DNA of 62,767 bases, counting the filler, from Nemertoderma westbladi (Eukaryota > Animalia > Xenacoelomorpha), in NCBI GenBank assembly GCA_032718475.1. It is 3 parts of 3 records of this genome, joined end to end, with 100 filler letters (N's around TTAATTAATTAA, not from the genome) between each part and the next. Parts side by side here need not be neighbours in the genome. Positions count along the whole stretch, not along the records: positions 42,035 to 62,767 come from JAUCBJ010005098.1; 2 more parts are not named here. One strand, given 5' to 3'. The position numbers were made by a program, and so were the translations under genes. Under the pieces are notes generated by a model. That model saw only the letters and a program-made list of their open reading frames with translations, was not told the origin of the DNA and made no database searches. Position 1 is the stretch's first letter, and each line of letters starts with the position of its first letter. This document shows positions 26,141 to 61,140 of this stretch, piece by piece.

Positions 26141-26411
26141 GTAAGTTAAGTTAGGTATTATATGAACGTAACATATTCTCCTAAGTCTCTGTAACTAAGT
26201 AACTGAGTAACTAAGTAACTGAATTGTTTAATTTGTTTGCAGAGATGCAACACGAGTGAATAATATAGAAATTTCTACTTTTTTTATTAGCTTCATTAGC
26301 TTAAATGGCTTGATAATCAATTAAAATATTATAAGGTTTATTACTAAAAAATAACTACATGTGCACGTTTTGGTGATTTTAGATAAAGCCATGATTGCCT
26401 CATCATAGGGG

Positions 26412-32400: not shown

Positions 32401-35400
32401 TGTGAGAACATTAGATGGTTGGAGTAATTGGATGGGGAGGTTTGTGAGAGCATTAGATGGTTGGAGTAATTGGATGGGGAGCTTTGTGAGAACATTAGAT
32501 GGTTGGAGTAATTGGATGGGGAGGTTTGTGAGAACATTAGATGGTTGGAGTAATTGGATGGGGAGGTTTGTGAGAACATTAGATGGTTGGAGTAATTGGA
32601 TGGGGAGGTTTGTGAGAACATTAGATGGTTGGAGTAATTGGATGGGGAGGTTTGTGAGAACATTAGATGGTTGGAGTAATTGGATGGGGAGGTTTGTGAG
32701 AACATTAGATGGTTGGAGTAATTGGATGGGGAGGTTTGTGAGAACATTAGATGGTTGGAGTAATTGGATGGGGAGGTTTGTGAGAACATTAGATGGTTGG
32801 AGTAATTGGATGGGGAGGTTTGTGAGAACATTAGATGGTTGGAGTAATTGGATGGGGAGGTTTGTGAGAACATTAGATGGTTGGAGTAATTGGATGGGGA
32901 GGTTTGTGAGAACATTAGATGGTTGGAGTAATTGGATGGGGAGGTTTGTGAGAACATTAGATGGTTGGAGTAATTGGATGGGGAGGTTTGTGAGAACATT
33001 AGATGGTTGGAGTAATTGGATGGGGAGGTTTGTGAGAACATTAGATGGTTGGAGTAATTGGATGGGGAGGTTTGTGAGAACATTAGATGGTTGGAGTAAT
33101 TGGATGGGGAGGTTTGTGAGAGCATTAGATGGTTGGAGTAATTGGATGGGGAGCTTTGTGAGAACATTAGATGGTTGGAGTAATTGGATGGGGAGGTTTG
33201 TGAGAACATTAGATGGTTGGAGTAATTGGATGGGGAGGTTTGTGAGAAAATTAGATGGTTGGAGTAATTGGATGGGGAGCTTTGTGAGAACATTATATGG
33301 TTGGAGTAATTGGATGGGGAGGTTTGTGAGAGCATTAGATGGTTGGAGTAATTGGATGGGGAGGTTTGTGAGAACATTAGATGGTTGGAGTAATTGGATG
33401 GGGAGGTTTGTGAGAAAATTAGATGGTTGGAGTAATTGGATGGGGAGCTTTGTGAGAGCATTAGATGGTTGGAGTAATTGGATGGGGAGGTTTGTGAGAG
33501 CATTAGATGGTTGGAGTAATTGGATGGGGAGGTTTGTGAGAACATTAGATGGTTGGAGTAATTGGATGGGGAGGTTTGTGAGAAAATTAGATGGTTGGAG
33601 TAATTGGATGGGGAGCTTTGTGAGAACATTAGATGGTTGGAGTAATTGGATGGGGAGGTTTGTGAGAGCATTAGATGGTTGGAGTAATTGGATGGGGAGC
33701 TTTGTGAGAACATTAGATGGTTGGAGTAATTGGATGGGGAGGTTTGTGAGAACATTAGATGGTTGGAGTAATTGGATGGGGAGGTTTGTGAGAACATTAG
33801 ATGGTTGGAGTAATTGGATGGGGAGGTTTGTGAGAACATTAGATGGTTGGAGTAATTGGATGGGGAGGTTTGTGAGAACATTAGATGGTTGGAGTAATTG
33901 GATGGGGAGGTTTGTGAGAACATTAGATGGTTGGAGTAATTGGATGGGGAGGTTTGTGAGAACATTAGATGGTTGGAGTAATTGGATGGGGAGGTTTGTG
34001 AGAACATTAGATGGTTGGAGTAATTGGATGGGGAGGTTTGTGAGAACATTAGATGGTTGGAGTAATTGGATGGGGAGGTTTGTGAGAACATTAGATGGTT
34101 GGAGTAATTGGATGGGGAGGTTTGTGAGAACATTAGATGGTTGGAGTAATTGGATGGGGAGGTTTGTGAGAACATTAGATGGTTGGAGTAATTGGATGGG
34201 GAGGTTTGTGAGAACATTAGATGGTTGGAGTAATTGGATGGGGAGGTTTGTGAGAACATTAGATGGTTGGAGTAATTGGATGGGGAGGTTTGTGAGAACA
34301 TTAGATGGTTGGAGTAATTGGATGGGGAGGTTTGTGAGAACATTAGATGGTTGGAGTAATTGGATGGGGAGGTTTGTGAGAACATTAGATGGTTGGAGTA
34401 ATTGGATGGGGAGGTTTGTGAGAACATTAGATGGTTGGAGTAATTGGATGGGGAGGTTTGTGAGAACATTAGATGGTTGGAGTAATTGGATGGGGAGGTT
34501 TGTGAGAACATTAGATGGTTGGAGTAATTGGATGGGGAGGTTTGTGAGAACATTAGATGGTTGGAGTAATTGGATGGGGAGGTTTGTGAGAACATTAGAT
34601 GGTTGGAGTAATTGGATGGGGAGGTTTGTGAGAACATTAGATGGTTGGAGTAATTGGATGGGGAGGTTTGTGAGAACATTAGATGGTTGGAGTAATTGGA
34701 TGGGGAGGTTTGTGAGAACATTAGATGGTTGGAGTAATTGGATGGGGAGGTTTGTGAGAACATTAGATGGTTGGAGTAATTGGATGGGGAGGTTTGTGAG
34801 AACATTAGATGGTTGGAGTAATTGGATGGGGAGGTTTGTGAGAACATTAGATGGTTGGAGTAATTGGATGGGGAGGTTTGTGAGAACATTAGATGGTTGG
34901 AGTAATTGGATGGGGAGGTTTGTGAGAACATTAGATGGTTGGAGTAATTGGATGGGGAGGTTTGTGAGAACATTAGATGGTTGGAGTAATTGGATGGGGA
35001 GGTTTGTGAGAACATTAGATGGTTGGAGTAATTGGATGGGGAGGTTTGTGAGAACATTAGATGGTTGGAGTAATTGGATGGGGAGGTTTGTGAGAACATT
35101 AGATGGTTGGAGTAATTGGATGGGGAGGTTTGTGAGAACATTAGATGGTTGGAGTAATTGGATGGGGAGGTTTGTGAGAACATTAGATGGTTGGAGTAAT
35201 TGGATGGGGAGGTTTGTGAGAACATTAGATGGTTGGAGTAATTGGATGGGGAGGTTTGTGAGAACATTAGATGGTTGGAGTAATTGGATGGGGAGGTTTG
35301 TGAGAACATTAGATGGTTGGAGTAATTGGATGGGGAGGTTTGTGAGAACATTAGATGGTTGGAGTAATTGGATGGGGAGGTTTGTGAGAACATTAGATGG

Positions 35401-38400
35401 TTGGAGTAATTGGATGGGGAGGTTTGTGAGAACATTAGATGGTTGGAGTAATTGGATGGGGAGGTTTGTGAGAACATTAGATGGTTGGAGTAATTGGATG
35501 GGGAGGTTTGTGAGAACATTAGATGGTTGGAGTAATTGGATGGGGAGGTTTGTGAGAACATTAGATGGTTGGAGTAATTGGATGGGGAGGTTTGTGAGAA
35601 CATTAGATGGTTGGAGTAATTGGATGGGGAGGTTTGTGAGAACATTAGATGGTTGGAGTAATTGGATGGGGAGGTTTGTGAGAACATTAGATGGTTGGAG
35701 TAATTGGATGGGGAGGTTTGTGAGAACATTAGATGGTTGGAGTAATTGGATGGGGAGGTTTGTGAGAACATTAGATGGTTGGAGTAATTGGATGGGGAGG
35801 TTTGTGAGAACATTAGATGGTTGGAGTAATTGGATGGGGAGGTTTGTGAGAACATTAGATGGTTGGAGTAATTGGATGGGGAGGTTTGTGAGAACATTAG
35901 ATGGTTGGAGTAATTGGATGGGGAGGTTTGTGAGAACATTAGATGGTTGGAGTAATTGGATGGGGAGGTTTGTGAGAACATTAGATGGTTGGAGTAATTG
36001 GATGGGGAGGTTTGTGAGAACATTAGATGGTTGGAGTAATTGGATGGGGAGGTTTGTGAGAACATTAGATGGTTGGAGTAATTGGATGGGGAGGTTTGTG
36101 AGAACATTAGATGGTTGGAGTAATTGGATGGGGAGGTTTGTGAGAACATTAGATGGTTGGAGTAATTGGATGGGGAGGTTTGTGAGAACATTAGATGGTT
36201 GGAGTAATTGGATGGGGAGGTTTGTGAGAACATTAGATGGTTGGAGTAATTGGATGGGGAGGTTTGTGAGAACATTAGATGGTTGGAGTAATTGGATGGG
36301 GAGGTTTGTGAGAACATTAGATGGTTGGAGTAATTGGATGGGGAGGTTTGTGAGAACATTAGATGGTTGGAGTAATTGGATGGGGAGGTTTGTGAGAACA
36401 TTAGATGGTTGGAGTAATTGGATGGGGAGGTTTGTGAGAACATTAGATGGTTGGAGTAATTGGATGGGGAGGTTTGTGAGAACATTAGATGGTTGGAGTA
36501 ATTGGATGGGGAGGTTTGTGAGAACATTAGATGGTTGGAGTAATTGGATGGGGAGGTTTGTGAGAACATTAGATGGTTGGAGTAATTGGATGGGGAGGTT
36601 TGTGAGAACATTAGATGGTTGGAGTAATTGGATGGGGAGGTTTGTGAGAACATTAGATGGTTGGAGTAATTGGATGGGGAGGTTTGTGAGAACATTAGAT
36701 GGTTGGAGTAATTGGATGGGGAGGTTTGTGAGAACATTAGATGGTTGGAGTAATTGGATGGGGAGGTTTGTGAGAACATTAGATGGTTGGAGTAATTGGA
36801 TGGGGAGGTTTGTGAGAACATTAGATGGTTGGAGTAATTGGATGGGGAGGTTTGTGAGAACATTAGATGGTTGGAGTAATTGGATGGGGAGGTTTGTGAG
36901 AACATTAGATGGTTGGAGTAATTGGATGGGGAGGTTTGTGAGAACATTAGATGGTTGGAGTAATTGGATGGGGAGGTTTGTGAGAACATTAGATGGTTGG
37001 AGTAATTGGATGGGGAGGTTTGTGAGAACATTAGATGGTTGGAGTAATTGGATGGGGAGGTTTGTGAGAACATTAGATGGTTGGAGTAATTGGATGGGGA
37101 GGTTTGTGAGAACATTAGATGGTTGGAGTAATTGGATGGGGAGGTTTGTGAGAACATTAGATGGTTGGAGTAATTGGATGGGGAGGTTTGTGAGAACATT
37201 AGATGGTTGGAGTAATTGGATGGGGAGGTTTGTGAGAACATTAGATGGTTGGAGTAATTGGATGGGGAGCTTTGTGAGAACATTAGATGGTTGGAGTAAT
37301 TGGATGGGGAGGTTTGTGAGAACATTAGATGGTTGGAGTAATTGGATGGGGAGGTTTGTGAGAACATTAGATGGTTGGAGTAATTGGATGGGGAGGTTTG
37401 TGAGAACATTAGATGGTTGGAGTAATTGGATGGGGAGGTTTGTGAGAACATTAGATGGTTGGAGTAATTGGATGGGGAGGTTTGTGAGAACATTAGATGG
37501 TTGGAGTAATTGGATGGGGAGGTTTGTGAGAACATTAGATGGTTGGAGTAATTGGATGGGGAGCTTTGTGAGAACATTAGATGGTTGGAGTAATTGGATG
37601 GGGAGGTTTGTGAGAACATTAGATGGTTGGAGTAATTGGATGGGGAGGTTTGTGAGAACATTAGATGGTTGGAGTAATTGGATGGGGAGGTTTGTGAGAA
37701 CATTAGATGGTTGGAGTAATTGGATTGGGAGGTTTGTGAGAACATTAGATGGTTGGAGTAATTGGATGGGGAGGTTTGTGAGAACATTAGATGGTTGGAG
37801 TAATTGGATGGGGAGGTTTGTGAGAACATTAGATGGTTGGAGTAATTGGATGGGGAGGTTTGTGAGAACATTAGATGGTTGGAGTAATTGGATGGGGAGG
37901 TTTGTGAGAACATTAGATGGTTGGAGTAATTGGATGGGGAGGTTTGTGAGAACATTAGATGGTTGGAGTAATTGGATGGGGAGGTTTGTGAGAACATTAG
38001 ATGGTTGGAGTAATTGGATGGGGAGGTTTGTGAGAACATTAGATGGTTGGAGTAATTGGATGGGGAGGTTTGTGAGAACATTAGATGGTTGGAGTAATTG
38101 GATGGGGAGGTTTGTGAGAACATTAGATGGTTGGAGTAATTGGATGGGGAGGTTTGTGAGAACATTAGATGGTTGGAGTAATTGGATGGGGAGCTTTGTG
38201 AGAACATTAGATGGTTGGAGTAATTGGATGGGGAGGTTTGTGAGAACATTAGATGGTTGGAGTAATTGGATGGGGAGGTTTGTGAGAACATTAGATGGTT
38301 GTAGTAATTGGATGGAGAGGTTTGTGAGAACATTAGATGGTTGGAGTAATTGGATGGGGAGGTTTGTGAGAACATTAGATGGTTGGAGTAATTGGATGGG

Positions 38401-39529
38401 GAGGTTTGTGAGAACATTAGATGGTTGGAGTAATTGGATGGGGAGCTTTGTGAGAACATTAGATGGTTGGAGTAATTGGATGGGGAGCTTTGTGAGAACA
38501 TTAGATGGTTGGAGTAATTGGATGGGGAGCTTTGTGAGAACATTAGATGGTTGGAGTAATTGGATGGGGAGCTTTGTGAGAACATTAGATGGTTGGAGTA
38601 ATTGGATGGGGAGGTTTGTGAGAACATTAGATGGTTGGAGTAATTGGATGGGGAGCTTTGTGAGAACATTATATGGTTGGAGTAATTGGATGGGGAGGTT
38701 TGTGAGAACATTAGATGGTTGGAGTAATTGGATGGGGAGGTTTGTGAGAACATTAGATGGTTGGAGTAATTGGATGGGGAGGTTTGTGAGAAAATTAGAT
38801 GGTTGGAGTAATTGGATGGGGAGGTTTGTGAGAAAATTAGATGGTTGGAGTAATTGGATGGGGAGGTTTGTGAGAAAATTAGATGGTTGGAGTAATTGGA
38901 TGGGGAGGTTTGTGAGAACATTAGATGGTTGGAGTAATTGGATGGGGAGGGGAGGTTTGTGAGAACATTAGATGGTTGGAGTAATTGGATGGGGAGGTTT
39001 GTGAGAACATTAGATGGTTGGAGTAATTGGATGGGGAGGTTTGTGAGAACATTAGATGGTTGGAGTAATTGGATGGGGAGGTTTGTGAGAACATTAGATG
39101 GTTGGAGTAATTGGATGGGGAGCTTTGTGAGAACATTATATGGTTGGAGTAATTGGATGGGGAGGTTTGTGAGAACATTAGATGGTTGGAGTAATTGGAT
39201 GGGGAGGTTTGTGAGAACATTAGATGGTTGGAGTAATTGGATGGGGAGGTTTGTGAGAACATTAGATGGTTGGAGTAATTGGATGGGGAGGTTTGTGAGA
39301 ACATTAGATGGTTGGAGTAATTGGATGGGGAGGTTTGTGAGAACATTAGATGGTTGGAGTAATTGGATGGGGAGGTTTGTGAGAACATTAGATGGTTGGA
39401 GTAATTGGATGGGGAGGTTTGTGAGAACATTAGATGGTTGGAGTAATTGGATGGGGAAGTTTGTGAGAACATTAGATGGTTGGAGTAATTGGATGGGGAG
39501 GTTTGTGAGAACATTAGATGGTTGGAGTA
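26412..39529. repeat. G-rich minisatellite, 42-bp unit, ~312 copies (13.1 kb), intronic
   Basis: GAGGTTTGTGAGAACATTAGATGGTTGGAGTAATTGGATGGG repeated; starts ~270 bp after the channel exon donor. Confidence 0.99.
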
Positions 39530-41934
39530 CTACTACTACTAGGATCGGCATGCTGCATTGCAGCTGCATTTTTAAGAATGCTGTGCCGGCTTGTCAACAA
39601 AATTGCACCGCCACAACTCCCTATCACCCATGACATTTGCTAGATCATCCGCATCTTTAAGGCCAGTGTCCTTTAAGATGCGTCTCAAGAAAGTCATGGG
39701 CTGTCCACCATGCTTATTCACTCCATGAGGCTGCCAAAGTACAAGATTATGCACTGGCTGGTCCTCACGGCGAAAGCAATGTCCTGCAAAGCGGAGGCGA
39801 TTTTGTTCTAGTGTCAAGCTTGGGGGAACCAATGAGACACCTCCAATGTTATATAGTGTCTGGTTGGAGATGTGTGCATTGTACTTGACACAATGTACCC
39901 GGCGTAGCATTCTTGTGAATGTGCCATCCAGAGATTTGGTGTCCTCAGCAGTTAGAGCCCAGCATGGACTCCCGTAGAGGAGTACTGGAACTACTGCTGC
40001 TCTGAATAATCGGACCTTAAGTTTTCGATTAATTCTAGGTGACTTCCAAATCCTGGAAAGCCTATTCAAGGCTGCCCATGCCTTTCCCTTACGTATTCGA
40101 AGGTCCTCACCTGACTTCCGGATCCATGATCCCAGGTAACAGAAGTCGTCCACATGCTCAAGCATACCATCCTTTGAGCTTATGCTCATCCGATCAGAGA
40201 CTTGCTGAGGACTTTCAAAGTTAACTGTCAGAATTTTGGTCTTTCTGGAGTTAATAAAAAGACCAACACTAGAAGCAGCATGTTCTAATGAGCTGAGGAG
40301 CCGCTGGGCTCCCTCTAATGATTCTGAGAGTACTCCTAAGTCATCAGCAAAGTCTAGATCAGTTAGGTACTTGGCAGGATTTCCTCGACTTCTGGAGCCA
40401 GTAGGTGGAGTTATCATCACCCCATCATCATTATGATGATCTAAGGACATGCGTAGAACATAGTCAACCACAATAATGAACAAGAATGGTGCAAGTGTGT
40501 CTCCTTGGAGGACGCCCCATAACACTTCAAATGGTTCTGTGTCACCATCAACAGTAGACACAAATGTTGTCGAACCATCGTATACTGATCTGATTGCTGC
40601 AATAATTTCATCAGGAATCCCATATAATGAAAGTATGCTGAACATACGTGAGCGAGAGACTGAATCAAAGGCCTTGAAGAAGTCAACAAAGATAACAGCC
40701 AGATGCCTGTCTTTCTTTTTTGATAACTCTTCAATTATCCTTCTAAGTGCCAAAATGGGCTCCATGGTCCCACGACCTTTACGGAACCCATTCTGATTTC
40801 CACGTAGCAGTCTCTCAATGGGATCCCTGATGCGATTTAATAGAATTCTATTGTATAGTTTTGCAGCAATCGAGATCAATGAGATTCCCCGAAAAGAACC
40901 ATAGAGTGTTAGGTTGCCCTTCTTGGGAACTGGCACCAACTTATTTGTTTTCATTTCTTGTGGGACTCTTGTTGTACGGTACATGTCTACTATGATGGGA
41001 TAGATGAGCTTTAAACACTCAGGTATTTTAAAGACCTCAGGGGGAACACCATCTACTCCACTGGCACGATTGGTCTTAATGCTCTTTGCAGCAGCCTTCA
41101 CTTCTGCAAAGGAGATATCGCCAATGGGAATATCTGGGAGTACAGACTCAGACACTTTTACTTCTATAAAGTTATCAGGCAATACCCTGTCATTATTGAG
41201 GAGCTTTTCAAAGTGGGCTTTCCAACCATTGAGGCGATCGGCTGGTGATTCAGCCTTAACCTTGGTGGTTGGTTGGCTTTTCCGCCCAGTAAGCAGATTG
41301 ATCGATTTCCATGCCTGGGATGATTGCCTGCTGTCGTCAGCATCATTGATGGCATCAACCTGTTGGTTTATTAGCTCCTGTAGATTAACAGAGTACTGCC
41401 TGTTCAGGGACCTAGATGCAGCTTTAACTGCATTCTTGGCCGCTGTAGTCTGTTTGAGTCGGGACTCTTTCTGCGCCTTATGAAGGTCATTTCGGCACTT
41501 CTGAATTTTGTTGTCAGTCCAGGGGGCCCTTTTCCTGTTTCGAGGGTATACAGGAACTGTTTCTGCAGCTGCTAACTTAACTGCTTCTGTAAAGGCAGTA
41601 TAGCCCTCACAGTGATCTGCCGCCTCAGAGGCAAGAGCCTCATACCTGTTGCTCAGCTGTAGTGTGAAGCTGGATCTCACACTTGGCTGTTGCAACAGAG
41701 AGGACCAGTCATGCCGTGGCAAGGCAGATTTCGTTGTTCTGCTAGCACGCAGACTAAGTCTTACCTTGGCCACAATAAGGCGGTGATCACTGGAGAAGGG
41801 TCGAAGTGTAAATGCATTACAGTCTTGTATAGAGCTCCTGTATTTCCTACGAAACAGAATATGGTCTATCTGGGACTTGTGACCACTGGGTCCACTATGA
41901 GTCCATAGCTTTCCAGTTCGCTTCTTGAACTGGG
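39530..41934 (-). mobile_element. Young RTE-clade LINE, 5' part lost in gap
   Basis: Uninterrupted APE-RT frame, ~30-bp 3' UTR and (TAG)4 tail joined to the 42-bp array; no C-terminal Zn-finger, consistent with RTE. Confidence 0.93.
39572..41934 (-). CDS. RTE ORF: APE endonuclease C-terminus plus reverse transcriptase (5'-partial)
   Basis: Frame stays open upstream of 41773 to the gap (KLWTHSGPSGHKSQIDHILFR...SSDHRLIVAK); RT motifs VPKKG, FRGISL, QNGFRKGR, FVDFFKAFDSV, GVLQGDTLAPFLF, FADD, YLGS. Confidence 0.95.
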
Positions 41935-42034
41935 NNNNNNNNNNNNNNNNNNNNNNNNNNNNNNNNNNNNNNNNNNNNTTAATTAATTAANNNNNNNNNN
42001 NNNNNNNNNNNNNNNNNNNNNNNNNNNNNNNNNN
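41935..42034. other. Assembly gap (N44-TTAATTAATTAA-N44 linker)
   Basis: Same structure as the gap at 20104. Confidence 0.98.
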
Positions 42035-48870: not shown

Positions 48871-50139
48871 ATCTGAAACCCAATAGTCATCATACTATTT
48901 CGGAATCTGCAGATGATGACGATGAGCCCATCGAACTAAGTGAGTAAATTAAATTTAATTTAGAAAAATTGCTGTTTGATTATTTCAATTATTCAGAGTC
49001 TCTATGATAACTATCTATCCTAATTAATATTATTAAGTATATGCCAGAGGTCTATATAGGGCATAGGCATTTTTGAGAAAGTATATAGGTGATAGGTGAT
49101 GTAATGTACATTATATAAATATATTTGCTAATAAACATACCGTAAAGCGTAGCTTCAAATATTCCAGTTGCTGGGGCGATTCACCATGGCCCAGTGCATA
49201 TAATTGATTAAGCTTTTTTACAGTGAACTTCATGGTATGAAGTAGGCTAATTACTACGAAACTATTGTAAAGTAGTTACTGAACTATTGTTACGACGCTA
49301 TTGTGAATAATTGCTATTGTGAAGTAATTCCCTGACTGCGAAGTAGTTAGGGAACTATTGTGAAGCATTTGCTATGAAACTATTGTGAATAGTAATTGAT
49401 AGTAATTGATACCCATAAAATTGATAAATTGATAAATAACCAATGTTAGTAATTGATACTAAAATATTGCGAAGTAACTGTTGCGTAACTATGGTGCAGT
49501 AGTCAGGAACTATTTTGAAGATTGTAAAGTAATTATTACGAACCAATAATTCTGAATTACGAAATATTGTTAAAAGTACTATTGATGCGATACATGCATG
49601 TATTGCATTTGATATATATATATATATACCTATCTATCTATCTATACACATTGGGGTAGTCCACAAATGGAGTGTTTTTTGTACATTTGTGGACCACCCT
49701 AATTAATACACATACGTACATACATTGTATTAATTTTACCTTTCTAGCCTAGCATCAATTATAAACATATTACATAACCGTCAGACAAATTGCTGAATTG
49801 TTTATGCTTATAATGATTGCTAATCGACATTGTGCATTTTTTTTTGCTCTACTATCACTCTACCTTGTGTTACTTTTGCATCCTGCTCCTAAACTTTATT
49901 ATTGTATTACTGCTCACCACAGTAATACTCAGATACTATGTAGTTCATCTCGACATATTGGTGAGACGTTAGGGTTAATACCTTCTATTTTACCGCTGGC
50001 TTTGAGGCCAGTTGGGGCCGTGTGTGGCCGTTGCTGGGGATGCCCCTGCTCATCTACGGACCTCCCCCGCAGTGGCTGTCCTCGGCCATATAAACACAAA
50101 CATATCAGCTGTACTGAAACGTTTCATTTGAAACCAGGC

Positions 50140-53100
50140 GAGAATTATCATTACACAAAAAATATTATTGATCTATCAGGTGATGTTCAATCTAACCCTG
50201 GACCATTTTCTATTTACCAGTTAAATGTTCGTAGTCTTCTACCAAGGATACCACCTAGCAACATCATATCAATGGAGAAAATTGACAGCATTTATCAAAC
50301 AGCATGTGATCTTGGTATTGATATCTTTTGCCTAAATGAAATATGGTTTAATAATTCATCCGAAAATAAAAATAAAGACAAGTTAAATAAATACATCTCC
50401 ATATAAATTCTATAGTAAGCCACGTAGTGATAACTACGGAGGTGTGGGGGTACTGATTAAGGAAAGTATCCCTCACAAACGGAGGACATCGTTCGAGAAT
50501 AGCACCATGGATGCTATTTTCATTGAAATCTACCATTGCAAGTTAAAATTTTTGGTTATTTCTGTTTATGTGCCATCAACGCCGCCATCATCGTGTTTTG
50601 GGGGAAACTGTCAGAGGTAATTGAAGATATAAGAAAATCAAATAATTACGATTGTATTGTCCTATCAGGCGATTTTAATAGTAACTGTTTATCTGGCGAT
50701 TCTCTACCAGTCCAGCAATTTGCTGCACAAACAGGATTTACACAATACATTCATGAAGTAACTTGTCCCATTAGCAACACCTGCTTAGACTTGGTGTTCT
50801 CTGACAAACCTGCACTAACTCTGGACTATGGCACCCACCCTCTCCTGCAGTATGAGGATGGAGGTTTCATTTCAGATCACAAACCTGTTTATATAACAAT
50901 TAATTGTGAAATTAAACCTCCACCGTTATACAGCAGATCCATATTTGATTTTGCTAAAGCAAATTGGGAAAGTTTTTCGTTATTTATTTCGGGTTACGAC
51001 TTTACTTCGGCTATAGACAGCAGAGATCCTAACGAAATAGCACAAAAATTAAATGATTGCCTTAAGGAGGGAATTAACAAGTTTATACCTAATAAAGTAG
51101 TAAAATCACGATCAACCGATCCTAAATGGATCACACTTTCTGCGTCAACTTTTTAGAAAACGTGAGAAATGCCATAAAGAAGCATTAAAAACGCAAGATG
51201 ATTGAATGGAGTGGAACGAATATTGCAGACTTAGAAATCATGTTATTCAACAAGTGCGGATTTCAAAAAATGCATACAATCGTAAAATGTATGATAAGTT
51301 AAGTACTAGTGGTCAAATGACACAAAAAGAATGGTATTCTTTCTCAAAGAATACCCTTGGGAAAACAAAAGTTACTAATATACCATTCCTAATTGAAAAC
51401 AATACATGTCTTGTTGAGGCTAGTGCAAAAGCTGAACTCTTAAATAACTTCTTTATTGATCAAACAAAACTGCCATCTCCATTGAACCCTCTGCCTATAC
51501 TGGACTATGAAAATGAAAATATTACCATCTTAGAAAATATAACAATTAGTGAGGATGACGTTCTGGAATCACTAACTAGTTTGTCATCCGATAAAGCGTC
51601 TGGTACAGACGGCATTGGCCCCAAGGTAATCAAAGCTATATAGTACAAGTATATCCTCATTGCTAACAGTGTTATTTAATATCTCATTACTAACATCAAC
51701 ATTTCCCTCCCTTTGGAAATACTCTAACGTAAGCCCAGTCTTTAAGAAGAACGAAACATACTATTGCTCCAACTATCGGCCAATTTCATTGCTCTGCATT
51801 TTATCCAAGGTATTTGAAACTGTCGTTCGTAAACATCTCTGGGAATTTCTACGTAATAAACTTTCTGAACATCAGTCTGGTTTTATATCTGGAGATGGTT
51901 GTGTGTACCGTTTACTACAACTTTACGATGACTGGTGCCGTGCATGGGACGACGGCGATGTGTCACAGATTATTTTCTGTGATATATCGAAAGCGTTTGA
52001 CCGTGTATGGCATCAAGGCCTATTGCACAAGCTAGAACGAATTGGGATTCGTGGGAGGTTGCTAGGTTGGTTTGCAAGTTACCTGTCGGGACGTTACCAG
52101 CGGGTTGTACTCGATGGCGTTGCATCTGTATATATGCTTATTTTAGCAGGTGTGCCGCAAGGCAGAATCTTGGGTCCGCTGCTATTCCTTATTTATATAT
52201 TTATATCGATGAATTAATCGATGTATTGAAATGCACGGCATCACTTTTTGCAGATGATACGTCATTGTACACTCGATTACAGCATCCTTCAGTTAGGGCC
52301 CATTTTATAAACACAGACCTTTGTTCACTTCATGAGTGGGCACTTAAATGGCTTGTTACAATTAACCCATCCAAAACAGTAGTAATGACAATGGCTGGTA
52401 GTATCCCATACCAGATTTTGCCAGTCTATTACAATAATACTGCCCTACCTATGGTAGAGTCTCACAAACATTTAGGTGTCACCTTCTCATCCACTTTTAA
52501 CTTTACAGATCACATTCATACGATTATCAGTTGTCAATGTCAGTTGTGGCATTAAAGAAATCGAAATATCTCATCCCAAAAAAATCGATTATACAAATAT
52601 ACAAATGATTCATTAGACCAACACTAGAATACGCCAGCCCTGTCTGGTCCGGTATCTCTGACAAAATTTCAGAATTGCTGGACCAGATTGAGTTGGATAT
52701 TTTGAGAACGGCCACTGGGGCACCACGTGGTACATCTCATTATAAATTGTATGACGAGTGTGGCATACAAAAATTATCAGATCGTAGAAATGCCAACTGC
52801 CTATTATATTTCTACAAGATTGTGAATGGCCTTGCCCCTGGCTACCTGTCACGACTGCTGCCACCATCAGTTGGCGAGGCCAGTCAATACAGATACCCAT
52901 TGCGCAATGCGATTGACATCTCGTTGATACCGACGCGGAAAGAACTATACAATAAATCATTTTTTCCCGCGACGATCAGAAAGTGGAACTCCCTACCAAT
53001 CGCAATACGCCAACTCCCGACCACACTGTTTCGATCTAGGTTATTTTCTTCACCTACTATAAATCCATATACGCACCTCGGGTCTAGAATTATACAGGTA

Positions 53101-53385
53101 CGCCTATGCCAAATGCGGTTTGGATGTAGTAACTTAGGTGCTGACATGGTAAGATCAGTGAGAATCAGTGAATCTCCAGCTTGCGGCGGCTGTGGCGTAA
53201 CTGAGGACGCCCAGCACTACCTTCTTCACTGCCCTTCCTATTCCACCCATCGGCAAAAACTATTTGATGAGCTACAATCAGCTGGAATAACCACAAACAT
53301 CGAAGCTTTTCTACAGGGCCGTGGTGTACCACTTTCAAAACAACACTTTGGACAGTTCATCTCAGGCACTGGTAGATTCAACTAA
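50140..53385 (+). pseudogene. LINE ORF2 (2A-like peptide, APE, RT, C-terminal Zn-finger), disrupted
   Basis: LSGDVQSNPGP; NVRSL, CLNEIW, GGVGVLI, GDFN, LDLVF, SDH (APE); NYRPISLL, QSGF, DISKAFDRVWH, GVPQG.ILGPLLF, FADD, HLG (RT); CGGCGVTEDAQHYLLHC. Several frameshifts and stops. Confidence 0.93.
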
Positions 53386-54070: not shown

Positions 54071-54768
54071 CTGAATAAAGTAATTTTTTTATTTTTCAAA
54101 ATATCAATAATGTAACGATTACGGGACGCTTGCCCATATAGAGCAGCGTACAACAACCTACATCATAGGACACCATGAGCTTTAGTACTTATAAGGCTTC
54201 AATTCTATACTTAAATATCGGTAGTTTAAAATTTAGTGGATGAATTAACTATTTAAGTGGTGACAAGAAAAGTAGAGTTTTTTTGTCGAGCGTAGCGACA
54301 AAAATATGAAAGCAAGTCAAAAAATGTTATTTTTTTCCACCACTTGGTCGTTTCATTTTTATCTGGGCCTATTTCAGCATAAATATCGACCATCGAAGCT
54401 TCTTTTATAGTGATATACCGTCAAAGCAAAATAGGAACATAGGCCCTTCTATGATATTATAATATTACAGAATATTAAATAACCCGTCAGCGCTATCTAT
54501 TTAAATGCAATATTGTTTATATTGTCATAGAAATTACTTCGAACATTAATTTTTTTGTCAAACTTTTAAAGAATTTTACCAAAAAAATGATTTCAACAAA
54601 TAAAATTGTTTGTGGTTTTGCAGTAATATCCTTTGTAATTATGGCCTACTGTAATATCTGGTGGTGTTGCCACACCACGAGCCCGGCTGGTTTAACCTAT
54701 GTAAATAAATAAGACTTGAGAATTACATTACAGTATATTACTCAATAGGGCACGATAAATTACATTAC

Positions 54769-54997
54769 CTTGGTGAAAGTTTCCAGATATTCTCGAGGTA
54801 AATTTGTTCCTGGATCTTCCCCGTCGAAGTTTCTTCCCAAGACTAGTAATTGCTTTACTAGTAGTAATTGGAGAAGATGGAGATCTCTGACAATTTGCTC
54901 TACTTTCAGCGCTTGGCGTTGGGTGAAAATCCGTTCCATATTCAGCTCTTCTGGCAGTGATTGCAAAATTACAATTGCGCTTTCTCTTCCGTGGCAT
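54769..54997 (-). pseudogene. Helitron2/Helentron-type gene, exon 1
   Basis: ATG at 54997, MPRKRKR (NLS-like)...ISGNFHQ-G|GTAATG; a phase-1 GT-AG intron (54768-54071) joins in frame to exon 2, giving GNFHQGDVRF..GLQC. Confidence 0.78.
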
Positions 54998-55128
54998 CTT
55001 TGTCACAACATTTAATAAAATCGTGAGTAAAAAATCGACGTATATTAATAGTTAAATAAATTGGAGTTGAGCTGTTGCAACTGTTATTAAAGGTGTAGGC
55101 CTAATATTATGGTTTTGTTCAGAAGTGG

Positions 55129-55232
55129 AAAATATGAGAAAGCGCGTCACCGGGGGTTGAACCAGCGCTATACGAACGTTTCGGCCTAACAGGCCTCATC
55201 AGTAGCACTAACCAGCTCAGCCACTAGACCCT
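55129..55232 (-). ncRNA. Minimal type I hammerhead ribozyme (55163-55210) inside a tRNA-like Pol III unit
   Basis: Minus strand TAGTGCTA-CTGATGA-GGCCT-GTT-AGGCC-GAAA-C-GTTC-G-TA-TAGCGCTG: 8-bp stem I, intact core, 5-bp stem II, minimal stem III, GUA cleavage triplet. A box TGGCTGAGCTGG (55223-55212), B box GGTTCAACCCC (55163-55153), TTTT (55132-55129). Confidence 0.85.
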
Positions 55233-56161
55233 GACACTCACACTCCCACTTAATCCACTTCTATAGTCTTAAGTTGCATATATTATATCTATATTCTCGC
55301 TGCACAGGATGCTACAGGACAATCTTAAAGCTGGCAATAAGTGAGAAAAATTGTTGAATAACTAACTTTGAGTTTTAGATTGTGAATATTTTTGGCACAT
55401 AGCAGTTTTGTAATACTTATTTTTTGCTAATTAATTATTATTGTTATTCCGTCAATATTTTTCTGTTTGTAAGAGACATATTATACAATAAATACAGTAG
55501 TCCTCCATAATAATTAATATACATATTCCGTTATTTCATAAAATTTTGAGTAAAAATCGAAGTATATTAAATTATTAACTTAAACAGTATAACACAGATT
55601 GTAGGCCTAATATATATATATAACAAGCAGGTAGGGATTTTATTGATACAGTACATCACACTGCAAATATTAGTTCAATATAATATAAGTTCAATATATC
55701 TGACTGGTCCTCAACTCAGTCTCAGCAGGATGTTGACACCAATCCCAATCACTCTGGAATGTTCAATAGAGTAAGAGATCTAGTAGTTTGCAGAAGGTGA
55801 AGTCATCTGAGTCTATGCTTAACCTATTATTGGAACTAAATTATATCAGAGAGGTGTCGATAGATTACTAATAACAGCTGTTGTCATAAATTCAATATAA
55901 TCGCGCCCAAGAAGTAATACGACGAATTCGTTCTTATTCTTGTAAATAAAACAAGTTGAGATGTTTATGTTTCAATTTAAACGGCGATTTAATTAAATAC
56001 AACATTTTTATATTATTATAGTAGCATACGACATTTCAGTACACTTAGTAAGCCTACCCGATAGTCAACAGAAGTACAACTCTGTCTAACTAAAATTCAT
56101 TCAGCTGGCGTGCCGGTGAGTAACCTTGTAGATATTCCCATGTAGGATTTACTGGGAAGAG

Positions 56162-57458
56162 GGTGTTCGGACACTTCCCCCCGGACACTTCCCCCCCGGA
56201 CACTCCCCCCCCCCCCCAGACAGTTCCCACCCGCTCAAGTAGGACACTTCCGCCCCGGAAACTTCCCCCCCAGACACTCCCCCCCCCCCCCCCCCCCCCC
56301 CCGCGGATACTTCCCCCCCCCCCCCGACTGTTCTTAACTTCGCACATTCGTATTTTTCATTTAGTAAGGTAAACGGAACGCTTGTATCCAGATAAGTTGT
56401 ATCCAATTTTCCTTTTGTAGCTCAGAAAGTGATCTTTTGCATCCCGATTTTAAATTTTATATCCAAGTTTTATTTATGGGTTTTATCAATGCAATTACAT
56501 CGTATTGTTTGCTAATCTTTAAACAATTAATTATATTAGATGACCTATAAATTCCATCCCCGGAATGATATACTGTTTTTATTAACTATAGAATTATAAT
56601 AATTAATTGTTTTAATTATAGGTATTATATGTAATAGTATTCTTCAAATTGTAGCAGATGGGGATGAATATTATTGTTGCAATCAAAACTATACCTCTCC
56701 AGGGTAAAATCGACATGCGTCGACCTGTATTCTGTGTTCAGCATTACATATTGATATATATATTACTACTATACATACTATATAGATATTATACACACTA
56801 CATATTAAATTTCCTGGTTACTTGCAATATTTTTAATAGGATTTTGTTGAATTATATAATATTGTAGTAATTTATATATTAAATTGGTTAACATTCAATA
56901 CAGCTCCTACTTTAGGCTTAGTCAATTTATTATCTGATGATACAAACATGAATTAATTATTTCAAAGTGGTCTTAAGTCTTTCACCACGGGCACTCAGGG
57001 AAATGCCGGGGTCTGGGGGCGATAACCCCCAAGAAAAGAAGCGGGGTTTGGGGGCGGCAGCCCCCAAGAAAAGAAGCGGGGGTTTGGGGGCGGTAGCCCC
57101 CAACAAAAGAAGCGGTGGTTTGGGGGCGGCAGCCCCCAATTAAAATAAATTATAAGAATTAAAGGAATTAAAAGAAAAACAAACAAAATTTGACTATAAA
57201 AATGTTTCTTTTATAATTTTGAAAAACTTGTCTAGATACAACTTGTCCTGTAACCATCTTTAACTTTTGTTTATTGCTTTGATGCACCCAGATTAATTTT
57301 AACACTTTAACTGGGGGGGAAGTGTCCGGGGGGGGCAAGTGTCCGGGGGGGAAGTGTCCGGGAGGGAAGTGTCCTACTTGGGCGGGGGGAAGTGTCCGGG
57401 GGGGAAGTGTCCTACTTGGGCGGGGGGGAAGTGTCCGGGGGGGAAGTGTCCTAGATCC
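56162..57458. mobile_element. Non-autonomous foldback-type DNA element with 8-bp TSD
   Basis: GGGAAGAG at 56154-56161 and 57459-57466; GG..CC termini; arrays of GGACACTTCCCCCC (56169-56325) and its reverse complement (57312-57451). MULE- or Merlin-like, superfamily unresolved. Confidence 0.8.
57008..57139. repeat. ~36-bp tandem repeat of a GC hairpin, 4 copies
   Basis: TTGGGGGCGGCAGCCCCCAA hairpins separated by GAAAAGAAGCGGGG. Confidence 0.85.
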
Positions 57459-58638
57459 GGGAAGAGCTATCAGCTGGGTAACAGTTGATATTTGCTTACT
57501 GTGTCTGGGATAGCGTGACCGAGTAAACACAACCTTACTAAACTTGGCAAGTAATATACTTCTCTGCAGTTTGGGGCTATTCAATATAGAATTAATTTAC
57601 TAGGCACTCTCTATCATTTCTTTTTCATGAGCACACCAGCTGGTGTTTCTATCATTGAGTCTACGGAAATTTTCGTGCAATGGGGCTATTTTTCGAAATA
57701 AAACAAGTTAAGATGTTTCAATTTAAACCGCGATTTCACAAGTACCCATATAAAAATCTATTTTCATGGTTCATGCAAAAATTCATCAAAATCGTTAGAG
57801 CCGTTTTTGCTCTAGGTCAGTAGCCAGTAGTCAGTAGTCAGTAGCCAGTAGCTTTTGTTTTTCTTACAGTAATCAAGTCTAATGACTTGCTAAATAGTGT
57901 TGTTGATAATTTGGTATAGGTTTTCTTGTCTGCATTGATGGAGCTACAACTTCTAAATTGATTTGTTACCTGTCACATTATGTTTACATTGATATGCCCA
58001 GTGTTTGTCTGTGGATACTGTAGTAGACTATAACTAATATATAACTATCATAGTAAGTAAGTATAACTAATATAATATGTTATCTTCTTCCTATCTTTTA
58101 AAATCTTTATATAAAAGGCATTTTCGTTCTTTACATTAACTCAATTTTATTACCATTGCATTCGCAATCACAGAAAACCTGTAAATCACAGGAATATAGA
58201 TCATACAATGAATTCAAAAAAAAAATTTTTGAAAATGTCGAGCAGTGAATGCACCAACTTTTGGTTCACGCACGAAAAATGGTAATTGCGTTTCTCCTAT
58301 GAACTTTATTTCTGCAAATTGAATTCGCGACCACAAAAATCCTATAAATCGAGGGTATATAGGTCAAATAATGATAATTTCGAAACAATCAATTTTGAAA
58401 ATTTCGTGTCGCACCCTATTTTGGCACCGGCACAAAAATACCTGTTAGTCCTCTGAACTAAAGATTAAATACATTTTACTCAACTCCACATGCAAAAATG
58501 CGATGTGAATAGGAATTGTATGGTTTTGGATCATCCAGTCCCTCCCGTTTAACTTTCACGCAGTTCCCAAGGTTACTGCCAATAAAGTTGTTAGTCGCTA
58601 AGTTAAGTTTAACATAATCACTGTTATTAGACACTCAG

Positions 58639-61140
58639 GTGTTCCGACCGGACGTCGGAGCCGCGACCACACGCGATGCGACGGGAGCAGCGAGCGTCGT
58701 CTCCTTTAACGTGACACCAACCGACACTCGGTTATCCGGGGTGTACGGGAGCGAGTCTGTTCATGACGGGGAGAGTGTGAGCATCCCCCGGCCTTCGGCG
58801 GCGGGGGAGGCTGGGTCCGGGTGCGTGGCGGAGGTACCGGGTACTTCAACTCCTCAGGACCGTGCGCAGCTCCGGGACAGCAACATGGTTAGAAGCCTTT
58901 TCTTGGAGGTCGGTGAAAGTACAGGGGGCGACGCCAATCCCGGAGTGGGCGAAGAGGGTGAACTTTCCCCTATACTGGCGGAAGGTTTTTCGGCGTCTAA
59001 CGCGAACGGGTTGCTCGAAACTCCCAAACGTGCTAATGATTTTCAGGGAATACGTAGGGGGTCTGGCATCCATGTACCGGAAGCCAGAGCTTTCCCGTTT
59101 TTGGCAACTTCCGGAACAGGAGACGTTGTCCATCGGGTTTTAAACTATATTCCATATACTGTACCTTTTAAGTATCGATATGTCGCGCGGGCGTGTAACC
59201 AGCCGGCCGTGGAAGCCTTTATCCGTGATCTGCACCGGGTGGCGGAGAAGGTAGAGAGTCGACCTCAAGGGGAACCCAACTTGGATCAGGGTCAGATAGC
59301 GGAGCTGAAGAGTCTGGGGCGCGACAGCTCTATCGAGATAGTTCGCGGCGACAAGACGGGTAACGTGGTCATGATCGATTCCGGAATGAAGGATAAGGAG
59401 ATCCGGCGAGCACTCGGGGATGAATCTACGTACTGCGAGTTACCTAGCGACCCTACAAATAAGTTCATTGCTCAACTTAAGCGCGTTTTGCGAGAATATC
59501 GTATCGGGAATCGGGAATTGCGTGAGTATCTAGTACCCAAGCGGCCTGCTATGGGGTACGTTTTTATCCTGTTTAAAGACCACAAGGATAGGTCGGAGTG
59601 GATCGATTGGGGGGAAGGGGTCAGCTTACCCAAAGCGCGGTTGATTATTTCGGCTACGGGAACTGTTTCGGAGAGGGCAGCGCAACTCCTAAATTCCATT
59701 CTCCAACCGTTGCTGGAACGCATGCCACATTTTGTCCCGGATTCATCTTCGGCAAAGAAGCAGCTACCAACGGCGTCGTATGAGGGAGTTACTTTTATGG
59801 CTCTTGACGTTGTCGACATGTATCCGTCGGTCGACCACGCTTTGGCGACCGACGCCATTTCCTCATCGATAAAGGAGAACCCGGATTTAGTGGATATTTC
59901 GGGTTATTCTTTGGAACAGATTAATTGTAATTACTCATACCTATTTTAAAGCTTGTGGTAAATTCTATTTATTAATTAAAGGGTTGGGTATGGGGGGTCC
60001 GGCAGGTAAGTCTATTGCAGTACTGACGGTCCATCGTATACACAAGCATGTTGGGTTAATTACCCTGTTTGGTGCTATTTATTTTAAAACGTTTGTTGAC
60101 GACAGGGAGGGGATTTTCAGTAAGGTTCTAACTGCGGCCGAGAAAACAAACATAATTCAGCGATACAACGCGGGCAGTAAGGTTATATTTGGGAGGGATT
60201 CCATACAGTTTACAGTAGATTTCTCGCATGAGAAGTCCACATTTTTGGATTTGGACCTTTTTGTTAGTGGTATAGGCAGTGGTATTATCACGGGGGTGCA
60301 CTTTAAACCCCTTTCCAATAAATTACCGATTCCATACAGTAGTTACCACGACAATAGAGTTCTGGAGGGTGTGGTTAAAGGCCAAGTGAAAAGGTTCTGG
60401 AGATTGACTGGGGGGGGGGGGTGACCAGTTCATTGTAGCGAGGGATAGATACCTGACAGACTGTTGGGCTATGGGCTACCCCGTGGGTCAGAGGGGTGAG
60501 CAGTTGGGAGAAGGCGGAGGGGGTAGTACAGTACACTGGGGTGGATTACCGAAGGGTATTTCTGGCGGTGAGTGGCCCAACGAGATCAGCTCTGAAGGGT
60601 GTGATAAAGAAATATGGGGGCACGCTGGAGAAGTGGGGGTTGAACGTGGGTATGACAGCGAAGCGCGGATATAAATTGGAGAACATGCTAGTGAGAAAGC
60701 CGACTAAACCAGAATGGAAAGGGAATAGACTGTGTGGGCGTCCCAGGTGTATGACCTGCCCCTGGATAGTGGATTGTGAGAGGACACCTTGTGGGGATAA
60801 GGTGTTGGGCGCGTTAGACTGTACCTCCTTCAACGTACTGTACTTCATTTCCTGTAAGGACCACCCGAGTGAGTTTTACATAGGACAGACGGAGCAGCGT
60901 ATAAGAGAGAGAATGAATACCCATAGGTCAGTAATTAATGGATTTAGGACGCAGGTGGCCCCCGAATACAGTGAACACGACGAAGTGTTGTTGTGTGAGC
61001 ATTTCAGGCAATGTGAGCTGTCCCAGCTGCGGGTGACAGTGTTTAGGGCATATAGGAGCGACAGCGATCGCATCCACGGCGAGGCTAATTACATACATAG
61101 GTGCGGACCAACTTTGAACAAGAGTAAGCCAACAATATAG
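58639..61140 (+). mobile_element. Penelope-like element (RT plus C-terminal GIY-YIG endonuclease), two frameshifts
   Basis: RGDKTGNVV, YCELPSDP, LFKDHK, ARLIIS, ALDVVDMYPSV, GLGMG, FVDD, FLDL, HFKP...SYH, CGRPRCMTC, NVLYFISC..FYIGQT..RIRER..H, CEHF, E..YI...LN. Breaks near 59920 and in the G-run at ~60410-60421; GC-rich tail to AATAAA at ~61629. Confidence 0.92.

What the first reader, a model, noticed from the sequence alone, without database searches (positions are those of the whole stretch)
55129..55232. tRNA-shaped Pol III unit with a hammerhead ribozyme replacing the anticodon arm
Seen (minus strand): A box/D-arm-like TGGCTGAGCTGGTTAG, then an intact type I hammerhead (CUGAUGA, GGCCU/AGGCC, GAAAC-GUUC-GUA; predicted cut between 55171 and 55170), then B box/T-arm-like GCTGG-TTCAACCC-CCGGT and TTTT ~20 nt later. 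The 3' strand of ribozyme stem I overlaps the T-arm stem, so the two folds compete. Known: minimal hammerheads with near-palindromic stem III act as dimers and accompany Penelope-like elements and retrozymes; schistosome SM-alpha repeats combine Pol III boxes with a hammerhead. Inference: a ~100-nt self-promoting, self-cleaving SINE/retrozyme-like element, perhaps mobilised by PLEs such as the one 3.4 kb away. Best candidate for an undescribed system in this window.
Basis: partly seen in the sequence, partly recalled or inferred. Interest (0 to 1): 0.82.

Follow-up and report, generated by a model that had tools for sequence, protein, structure and literature searches.

The report
Hammerhead ribozyme nested inside tRNA promoter
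This is one copy of an abundant, likely mobile repeat of about 230 bases in what is likely an animal genome, in which a hammerhead motif predicted to cut RNA only in pairs sits between the two boxes of a tRNA-type promoter motif, so a cut would split the element's own promoter, unlike the promoter-then-ribozyme order reported for blood-fluke repeats.

Summary
The motifs are real and beyond chance. The element is not a ~100-nt single gene. It lies in a ~230-bp repeat (55052-55278, minus strand) with at least ~70-250, probably more, dispersed copies. Most contig depth from other copies has better letters than this copy: a perfect helix III palindrome, a G-C pair in stem I and a T6 terminator. 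With those letters the predicted fold of two RNAs is a double hammerhead. No core position varies at 4% or more. The RNA is predicted to form a rod, not a cloverleaf; a T-arm-like hairpin does compete with stem I. Copies span the cut site, and the repeat runs past the terminator into an AC-rich tail with staggered ends, as in Penelope insertions. Best reading: a non-autonomous, probably Penelope-mobilised retrozyme/SINE hybrid, copied from uncut or re-joined RNA. Closest known: Schistosoma Sm-alpha, whose ribozyme follows the promoter. Transcription and cleavage are untested. This scan noted the same layout before, in two tandem arrays of this genome. New variant of a known kind.

The parts
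55052..55278 (-). Whole repeat unit as present in this copy (about 227 bp)
   Evidence: Summed contig depth 70- to several-thousand-fold above flanks over 55052-55264; 3' edge at 55052 from loose ends and from locus contigs ending at 55081; 5' similarity of long copies to about 55275-55281 from loose ends. The 5' limit is approximate.
55212..55223 (-). Pol III type 2 A box
   Evidence: Matches the consensus (consensus recalled); its only common variant, 55216, stays within the consensus
55203..55210 (-). Hammerhead stem I, 5' strand (overlaps what would be the 3' strand of the D arm)
   Evidence: 8 pairs with 55170-55163; at 55207, 99% of contig depth carries the letter that turns G.U into G-C
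55196..55202 (-). Hammerhead core CUGAUGA
   Evidence: Sequence; no variant at 4% or more in X1, X4 or X5
55183..55195 (-). Stem II (5 bp) and loop II
   Evidence: Pair probability 0.8-1.0; variants at 55183 and 55187 keep pairing as G.U, 55189 lies in the loop
55171..55182 (-). Core GAAA, helix III and GUA triplet; predicted cut between 55171 and 55170
   Evidence: At 55175, 84-97% of depth carries the letter that makes 55179-55172 a perfect 8-nt palindrome; self-duplex -9.8 against -4.6 kcal/mol for this copy
55163..55170 (-). Stem I, 3' strand; also the 5' strand of the competing T-arm-like hairpin (55167-55162 with 55153-55148)
55153..55163 (-). Pol III B box, 60 nt after the A-box start
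   Evidence: Only exact B box on either strand of the window; no variant at 4% or more
55129..55134 (-). T run, predicted Pol III terminator (T4 here, T6 in most copies)
   Evidence: At 55133, 99% of depth carries the letter that completes T6
55228..55237 (-). 5' strand of the closing helix (pairs with 55144-55155); predicted Pol III start near 55235-55245
   Evidence: Pair probability 0.6-0.98 for the outer six pairs; the depth drop at 55228 roughly fits a main 5' end near 55240 (rough)
55254..55278 (-). Outer rod strands: 55262-55254 pairs with 55129-55121 (9 bp), 55278-55272 with 55082-55076 (7 bp)
   Evidence: Exact inverted repeats; 55264-55116 folds with z about -3 on the minus strand and -1.6 on the plus strand
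55052..55128 (-). AC-rich tail beyond the terminator, with staggered 3' ends
   Evidence: 64% A+C, 6 G in 77 nt; weak 5-bp hairpin with an AC loop, not significant; loose ends at 55052, 55102, 55109, 55115, 55129
55279..55285 (-). Candidate 7-bp target-site duplication (second copy 55047-55041)
   Evidence: Identical 7-mer; chance about 0.006 in shuffled flanks, post hoc and AT-only; weak

Best explanation
It is a solo copy of an abundant non-coding repeat, likely a non-autonomous retroelement, whose hammerhead motif lies between intact A and B boxes, is predicted to cut only as a dimer, and is likely pasted into the genome by a Penelope-type reverse transcriptase from RNA that was not cut or was re-joined. 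Steps: (1) Shown: many dispersed copies, conserved boxes and core, palindromic helix III, T6, and copies that span the cut site. (2) Inferred: Pol III starts near 55240; most RNA stops at T6 as a ~110-nt rod. (3) Predicted: a single RNA cannot form helix III; two RNAs pair through the palindrome into a double hammerhead and cut into ~70 and ~40 nt pieces. (4) Inferred: longer RNAs (terminator read-through, or Pol II read-through from upstream) include the AC-rich tail, where a Penelope-type enzyme starts reverse transcription at staggered sites and inserts into AT-rich DNA. (5) Inferred: because the cut lies between the boxes, only uncut or re-ligated RNA hands on a whole promoter, so solo daughter copies can stay transcribable.
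For: Copy number: 997, 1850 and 1196 contigs laid in X1, X2 and X3 (X2 and X3 are one sample); peak/flank depth 5564, 7711, 2241, with a floor of 179, 249, 72 if every base is counted 31 times. Five majority letters (84-100% of depth) each fit the model better than this copy. No variant at 4% or more at the 11 invariant core positions; 6 of 7 family variants between the boxes keep pairing or box consensus (expected 2.7, p about 0.007). With majority letters the lowest-energy fold of two RNAs is the double hammerhead, -83.2 against -72.2 for two monomers, while monomer helix III has probability 0.02. No step at the cut: depth at 55133/55175/55207 is 0.78-1.25 of the 55207 value, and contig pieces run across it (table 8). 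3' ends cluster about 81 and 119 nt after the cut; in the Anolis Penelope element RT starts in an AC-rich stem-loop 85-92 nt after the cut, an optional 30-40 bp tail marks a second start, targets are AT-rich, and uncut RNA is the main template (PMC11167929). 5 of the 15 joints shown are strand inversions. A GIY-YIG/RT element exists in the window.
Against: No RNA data, so neither transcription nor cleavage is shown. A T6 in 99% of depth should stop Pol III 77 nt before the repeat's main 3' end. The rod pairs sequence upstream of the predicted start with sequence downstream of T6; the 112-nt Pol III unit alone folds no better than shuffles (z -0.2), which points to a longer RNA under selection. 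No compensatory double change was seen; the variant test rests on 7 related events, 4 of them at 4% or more only in the diverged runs X5/X4 (X1 alone: 3 of 3, p 0.05). The nearby Penelope-like element shares no sequence with it and shows no hammerhead. Depths are sums over short contigs, so 5' and 3' end classes are rough; the ~55090 end is read from loose-end consensus. Inversion joints may be assembly effects of the palindromes. This copy's own letters do not give the double hammerhead as lowest-energy dimer.
Confidence: 0.45

Rival explanations
1. It is a truncated solo copy of an ordinary tandem non-LTR retrozyme with a longer unit. Arrays are read through by Pol II, cut in cis as dimers and circularised; the A/B boxes are a relic or only bind TFIIIC.
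For: The rod extends beyond the Pol III unit; T6 blocks Pol III from making unit-length RNA; long RNAs starting at 55262-55278 are predicted ribozyme-competent (stem I 0.75-0.86). Unchecked AI notes report 369-nt and triple arrays with the same layout in this genome. Solo monomers are common in retrozyme families (bioRxiv 10.64898/2026.07.22.740005).
Against: No head-to-tail joint among the joints shown (15 of 16, 6), and loose ends at both edges do not match the other edge; this cannot exclude a longer unit. Both boxes and T6 are conserved. Depth falls just upstream of the A box. No sequence look-alike to those arrays was found.
Confidence: 0.22
2. It is a tRNA-derived SINE mobilised by a LINE (L2/CR1/RTE) through its 3' tail, and the hammerhead is a captured passenger or a copy-number brake.
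For: Sharp main 3' edge at 55052 ending in an AT-rich simple tail, depth falling towards 5', and a candidate 7-bp duplication. LINE reading frames are present in the window.
Against: No similarity of the tail to the window's LINEs (best hits 11-13 nt; only this window was searchable). Internal T6; several earlier 3' ends; long copies reach ~55 nt upstream of the A box.
Confidence: 0.13
3. It is a solo LTR of a Helenus-type TRIM or LTR retrozyme that carries both a tRNA-type promoter and a hammerhead.
For: 55278-55076 begins TG and ends CA with a perfect 7-bp inverted repeat; Helenus LTRs hold box A and box B (PMC10886601); an unchecked AI note reports such an element in another genome.
Against: No 4-, 5- or 6-bp duplication around 55278-55076 and no TGG-type primer site after it; the repeat continues at high depth to 55052; many copies end inside the supposed LTR, and 55250 has only 10-15% of core depth. 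LTR retrozymes carry type III hammerheads.
Confidence: 0.08
4. It is the terminal repeat (pLTR) of a protein-coding Penelope element, of which only tips survive here.
For: Type I hammerhead with palindromic helix III is the pLTR hallmark (PMC4209133; PMC6765202); Penelope-like tail; earlier AI notes found tRNA heads in pLTRs of other genomes.
Against: The frame from the AUG inside the core stops after 26 codons, whereas in the Anolis element the ORF starts there. No long frame upstream. Depth drops to flank level beyond ~55290 and loose ends disagree beyond ~55280.
Confidence: 0.07
5. It is a DNA-level fold-back element (MITE-like) that captured a dead tRNA-hammerhead chimera; the RNA features no longer act.
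For: Nested inverted repeats; the family is young enough that conservation is weak evidence.
Against: 10 of 53 pairs in the rod are G.U and it folds 19 kcal/mol better on the minus strand; ends are staggered, not fixed; variants spare the core.
Confidence: 0.05

Closest known systems
Schistosoma Sm-alpha / Sj-alpha SINE-like hammerhead retroposons (seen as passages in PMC6765202 and PMC2770079; the 1998 primary paper was not held, the 2000 one seen only as a reference entry)
   Same: Short, non-coding, high-copy repeat that joins a tRNA-derived Pol III promoter to a hammerhead; cleavage in cis or trans is reported.
   Different: There the promoter is followed by the ribozyme, ends up at the 3' end of cut units, and single copies lose the ability to spread; its tRNA part is still called as tRNA-Gln. 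Here the ribozyme lies between the A and B boxes, no tRNA is called, and a T6 follows the B box.
Metazoan non-LTR retrozymes (PMC7229834 passages and Discussion; bioRxiv 10.64898/2026.07.22.740005 part 1 of 5 and passages)
   Same: Non-coding, 150-400 nt, type I hammerhead, dimer dependence in some, solo monomers, proposed Penelope partner.
   Different: Defined by tandem units that give circles. No tandem joint was seen for this unit. The preprint has 0 occurrences of 'tRNA', 'promoter' or 'pol III' in its main text; the passages read in PMC7229834 name no element promoter.
Penelope-like element pLTR hammerheads (PMC4209133 passages; Anolis PAc, PMC11167929 passages and second half of main text)
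   Same: Type I hammerhead with short palindromic helix III; AC-rich tail with staggered ends downstream of the cut; AT-rich flanks; copies made from uncut RNA.
   Different: No ORF starts in or beside this hammerhead; it carries Pol III boxes and a terminator.
Helenus TRIMs (TRIMp3; PMC10886601 passages)
   Same: tRNA-type box A and box B inside a short mobile unit with no tRNA function.
   Different: No ribozyme described ('ribozyme' occurs once, in a reference title); they have two LTRs, PBS, PPT and 4-5 bp duplications, not found here.
Engineered tRNA-ribozyme cassettes with a hammerhead in the anticodon loop (recalled; one search did not retrieve the original papers)
   Same: Same design idea: a ribozyme placed between internal Pol III boxes.
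   Different: Artificial and trans-targeting; this is a natural repeat whose own RNA is the predicted substrate.

Membership tests
Type I hammerhead ribozyme (dimer type) | Invariant core CUGANGA, GAAA, UH with helices I and II | tested here: met
   no core variant at 4% or more
Type I hammerhead ribozyme (dimer type) | Short palindromic helix III allowing a double hammerhead | tested here: met
   Met for majority letters; imperfect in this copy
Type I hammerhead ribozyme (dimer type) | Self-cleavage | not testable with these tools
   No RNA run listed; needs an assay
tRNA gene | Cloverleaf with D, anticodon and T arms | tested here: not met
tRNA-derived SINE (SINE2) | Internal A and B boxes at workable spacing | tested here: met
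   60 nt from A-box start to B-box start; consensus recalled
tRNA-derived SINE (SINE2) | High copy number, dispersed | tested here: met
   unrelated flanks in loose ends
tRNA-derived SINE (SINE2) | Element equals the Pol III transcript (5' end at the start site, no internal terminator) | tested here: not met
   T6 lies 77 nt inside the main 3' end; some copies extend ~40 nt upstream of the predicted start
tRNA-derived SINE (SINE2) | LINE-derived 3' tail and target-site duplication | tested here: inconclusive
   No match to the window's LINEs; weak 7-bp candidate; whole genome not held
Sm-alpha-like retroposon | Pol III promoter plus hammerhead in one repeat | tested here: met
Sm-alpha-like retroposon | Whole promoter upstream of the ribozyme | tested here: not met
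   The cut lies between the boxes against the order in PMC6765202
Non-LTR retrozyme | Non-coding unit of 150-400 nt with type I hammerhead | tested here: met
Non-LTR retrozyme | Head-to-tail tandem copies | tested here: inconclusive
   None in the window or among the joints shown; a longer unit would be missed; one 65-nt hammerhead tandem seen at low depth
Non-LTR retrozyme | Circular RNA | not testable with these tools
   No RNA run
Penelope pLTR | Adjacent RT/GIY-YIG ORF | tested here: not met
   Not at this copy; other copies not readable
Penelope pLTR | Staggered tail ends downstream of the hammerhead in AT-rich DNA | tested here: inconclusive
   Fits but read from contig loose ends, 24 of 499 rows shown
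TRIM / LTR retrozyme | TG..CA ends with 4-6 bp duplication, PBS and PPT | tested here: not met
   TG..CA present, duplication and TGG-type PBS absent at this copy

The most novel reading that the evidence does not exclude
A self-gating retroelement. The terminated ~110-nt Pol III RNA is an abundant half-ribozyme that pairs through its palindrome with any other RNA carrying a copy and cuts it in trans. Read-through RNA folds into the T-arm state, escapes cutting and is the template for new copies. Nesting the cut inside the promoter would let only uncut or re-ligated RNA found active daughters. The same nesting appears in an unrelated, probably fungal repeat (L001-L004), which would make 'ribozyme inside a Pol III promoter' a convergent class of element.
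Probability: 0.15. Interest if true: 0.85.

Novelty: new variant of a known kind. Interest (0 to 1): 0.58.

Why it matters
How animal retrozymes are transcribed, and what the dimer-type hammerheads of Penelope elements do when cleavage is not needed for insertion in vitro (PMC11167929), are open questions. A ~110-nt unit with its own predicted promoter, terminator and a cut site inside the promoter is a minimal test system for both. It may also avoid the dead-end of Sm-alpha solo copies, and hundreds of copies plus a trans-pairing RNA could cut host transcripts. Nine library searches showed no listing or passage describing a natural hammerhead between A and B boxes. Repbase, Dfam, subscription journals, the Sm-alpha primary papers and all supplements were not seen, so a prior description is not excluded.

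Tried and rejected
No whole genome held, so copies could not be read one by one. No RNA holder listed: no evidence either way. X4 gave 2 contigs and X6 none: no evidence. Pattern scan hammerhead core + B box: 0 in viral contigs; 2 in prokaryote genomes that look like chance by eye; 4 in one metagenome sample, of unrelated sequence. No look-alike among earlier findings by sequence. Tail-driven off-switch not established: stem I falls from 0.73-0.85 to 0.02-0.29 on read-through with family-like letters, but returns to 0.19-0.82 with four further common variants, and 63 of 200 shuffled tails also switch it off. Nearby Penelope-like frames: 0 of 3 matched Pfam, no homologue, no PDB match; only the Atlas supports GIY-YIG (0.96; family on 19-28% of members of the top three clusters). 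The hammerhead scan had a bug (missed the real site) and was replaced. Two primary papers were not held.

Full report
Observation. On the minus strand the sequence reads, in order, an A box (55223-55212), a type I hammerhead (55210-55163) with a GUA triplet and predicted cut between 55171 and 55170, a B box (55163-55153) and a T run (55132-55129). In 2000 dinucleotide shuffles of the surrounding 20.7 kb a hammerhead this good arose 0 times, a looser one 15 times and an A+B pair twice; the chance of both boxes flanking a given site is about 5e-7 (criteria chosen after seeing the site, box consensus recalled). It is the only good hammerhead and the only exact B box in the window. Rfam gives a sub-threshold Hammerhead_3 match and no tRNA; ARAGORN finds nothing.

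It is a repeat family. Three DNA runs of the same organism label hold the stretch (two studies, X2 and X3 one sample). Laid at 80% likeness, 997, 1850 and 1196 contigs fall on 54900-55700, nearly all on 55052-55264, and 81 from a more diverged run X5. Peak depth is 2241- to 7711-fold the flank. These are sums over overlapping short contigs, so the tool gives no copy number; dividing by the worst-case 31-fold overcount leaves 72-249. Loose ends run into unrelated AT-rich flanks, so copies are dispersed. The main 3' edge is 55052, with earlier ends read at 55102 (continuing about 12 nt), 55109, 55115 and 55129 (24 of 499 loose-end rows shown). Depth at 55228 is 31-43% and at 55250 10-15% of that at 55207, which roughly fits most copies starting near 55240 and a minority reaching about 55278; clipping at this copy's private letters could also cause part of the drop.

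Other copies are better than this one. At five places 84-100% of depth carries another letter. On the RNA strand these make helix III a perfect 8-nt palindrome (55175), turn a G.U in stem I into G-C (55207), extend the closing helix (55228), complete a T6 (55133) and add a G.U pair in the outer rod (55250). The variant table is complete at 4% or more. It holds nothing at the 11 invariant core positions or in the B box. Between the boxes I set aside the two rows private to this copy; of the other 7, six keep pairing or box consensus (expected 2.7, p about 0.007). Four of the 7 reach 4% only in X5 or X4; X1 alone gives 3 of 3 (p 0.05). The events are related by descent and no compensatory double change was seen, so this is modest support for selection.

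Fold. The region 55270-55115 forms a rod with the hammerhead at its tip (-55.9 kcal/mol, z -2.9, 2 of 200 shuffles as good) and folds far worse on the other strand (-37.2, z -1.2); 10 of 53 pairs are G.U. A cloverleaf is not predicted. A T-arm-like hairpin does compete with stem I and wins when the RNA starts at 55232-55234 in this copy, or often when the tail is included. That switch is not robust. Monomer helix III has probability 0.02 or less. With majority letters placed on this copy in a script, the lowest-energy fold of two 112-nt RNAs is the double hammerhead (-83.2 against -72.2 for two monomers); with this copy's own letters it is not. This matches the dimer type described for metazoan hammerheads (PMC4209133 passages). 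The 112-nt unit alone is no more stable than shuffles (z -0.2); the signal comes from helices that join sequence before the predicted start to sequence after T6 (z -3.1 to -4.0).

Mechanism. Copies carry both boxes and show no step at the cut site, so they were made from RNA that was uncut or re-joined there. The mobile unit extends 77 nt past T6, so the template is not the terminated Pol III RNA. The tail is AC-rich and ends about 81 and 119 nt after the cut. In the Anolis Penelope element reverse transcription starts in an AC-rich stem-loop 85-92 nt after the cut, an optional 30-40 bp tail marks a second start, targets are AT-rich and uncut RNA is the main template (PMC11167929, second half of main text). 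I therefore infer a Penelope-type partner (0.45 for the whole model). The Penelope-like element at 58618-61140 (GIY-YIG by the Atlas only; 0 of 3 frames in Pfam) shares no sequence with the repeat and shows no hammerhead, so nothing ties it to this family. The strongest rival is a truncated copy of a longer tandem retrozyme read by Pol II (0.22); my reads test would miss a unit longer than the window's copy. LINE-driven SINE (0.13), solo LTR of a TRIM (0.08; TG..CA ends but no duplication or primer site), coding pLTR (0.07; frame stops after 26 codons) and dead fold-back DNA (0.05) are weaker.

Known relatives. Sm-alpha is described as a promoter followed by a hammerhead, whose solo copies lose the ability to spread (PMC6765202 passages), with a tRNA part still recognisable (PMC2770079 passages). 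Non-LTR retrozymes are tandem and circle-forming (PMC7229834 passages and Discussion; bioRxiv 10.64898/2026.07.22.740005 part 1 of 5 and passages). Helenus TRIMs have the boxes but no described ribozyme (PMC10886601 passages). A SINE paper notes that a ribozyme behind a SINE head would cause 5' truncation (PMC5786205 passage), which makes an intact internal core notable. This element works like Sm-alpha or a retrozyme but fails the Sm-alpha order test and the classical SINE boundary test. Nine searches showed no description of the nested layout; repeat databases, supplements and two primary papers were not seen.

Elsewhere. A pattern asking only for a hammerhead core and a B box found 4 loci in one metagenome sample: an identical ~125-nt repeat end with four different flanks and unrelated sequence. 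It has a Hammerhead_3 match below threshold (27.6 bits, E 3.5e-4) and, unasked, an A-box-like motif upstream (relaxed by one position). My type I scan does not call it; by eye it is a type III fold. It suggests an independent origin of the same nesting but was not tested further. Unchecked AI notes report the nested layout in two tandem arrays of this same genome; sequence look-ups did not link them to this repeat.

Verdict. A real, conserved, high-copy element; a new variant of the Pol III-plus-hammerhead retroposon kind, distinguished by a cut site inside the promoter. All function is predicted. Interest 0.58.

Noticed in passing
L001-L004, 1-126: Unrelated repeat end, identical in four contigs of one metagenome sample, with a probable type III hammerhead between an A-box-like motif and an exact B box; a flank of L002 reads like a WD40 frame of a eukaryote, probably a fungus (by eye). 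Possibly a fungal Pol III LTR retrozyme.
   Followed up: partly
window 55530-55580 and 55008-55058: A diverged direct repeat of about 45 bp with period 522-523 brackets the element plus a low-copy 280-bp upstream stretch (55296-55574, a few paralogues). The paralogues end at 55574, exactly 522 bp from the repeat's 3' edge. Unexplained.
   Followed up: partly
window 55166-55211 (contigs in X1, X4, X5): A minor form repeats the hammerhead plus part of the A box head-to-tail with a period of about 65 nt (joint 55211 to 55166, depth 27-241): a possible cis double hammerhead.
   Followed up: no
window 55163-55210: With majority letters all three helices are built from palindromes (stem I strands, stem II 5' strand, helix III; self-duplexes -9 to -11 kcal/mol), so several strands could pair between molecules.
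   Followed up: partly
window 55068-55074 and 55213-55219: Seven tail bases are exactly complementary to the A-box region; the pairing is strong in this copy but weak with family-like letters.
   Followed up: yes
window 58618-61140: Frameshifted Penelope-like element with RT-like and zinc-finger/GIY-YIG frames; no standard hammerhead found in its flanks.
   Followed up: partly
window 54728-55002 (minus): A short basic open frame ending at a possible splice donor starts 60 bp downstream of the element; perhaps exon 1 of a gene or DNA transposon.
   Followed up: no
window 56177-57460: About 1.3-kb insertion-like stretch with long G/C-rich inverted repeat arrays, bracketed by a 24-41 bp direct repeat (55935-55990, 57687-57736).
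   Followed up: no
window 39572-41986 (minus) and 49765-53385 (plus): A nearly intact 804-codon LINE-type frame cut by an assembly gap, and a frameshifted endonuclease/RT LINE.
   Followed up: no
window 12091-18437 and 26321-39633: Long tandem arrays (about 6 kb and 13 kb), the second with GC skew near 0.9.
   Followed up: no
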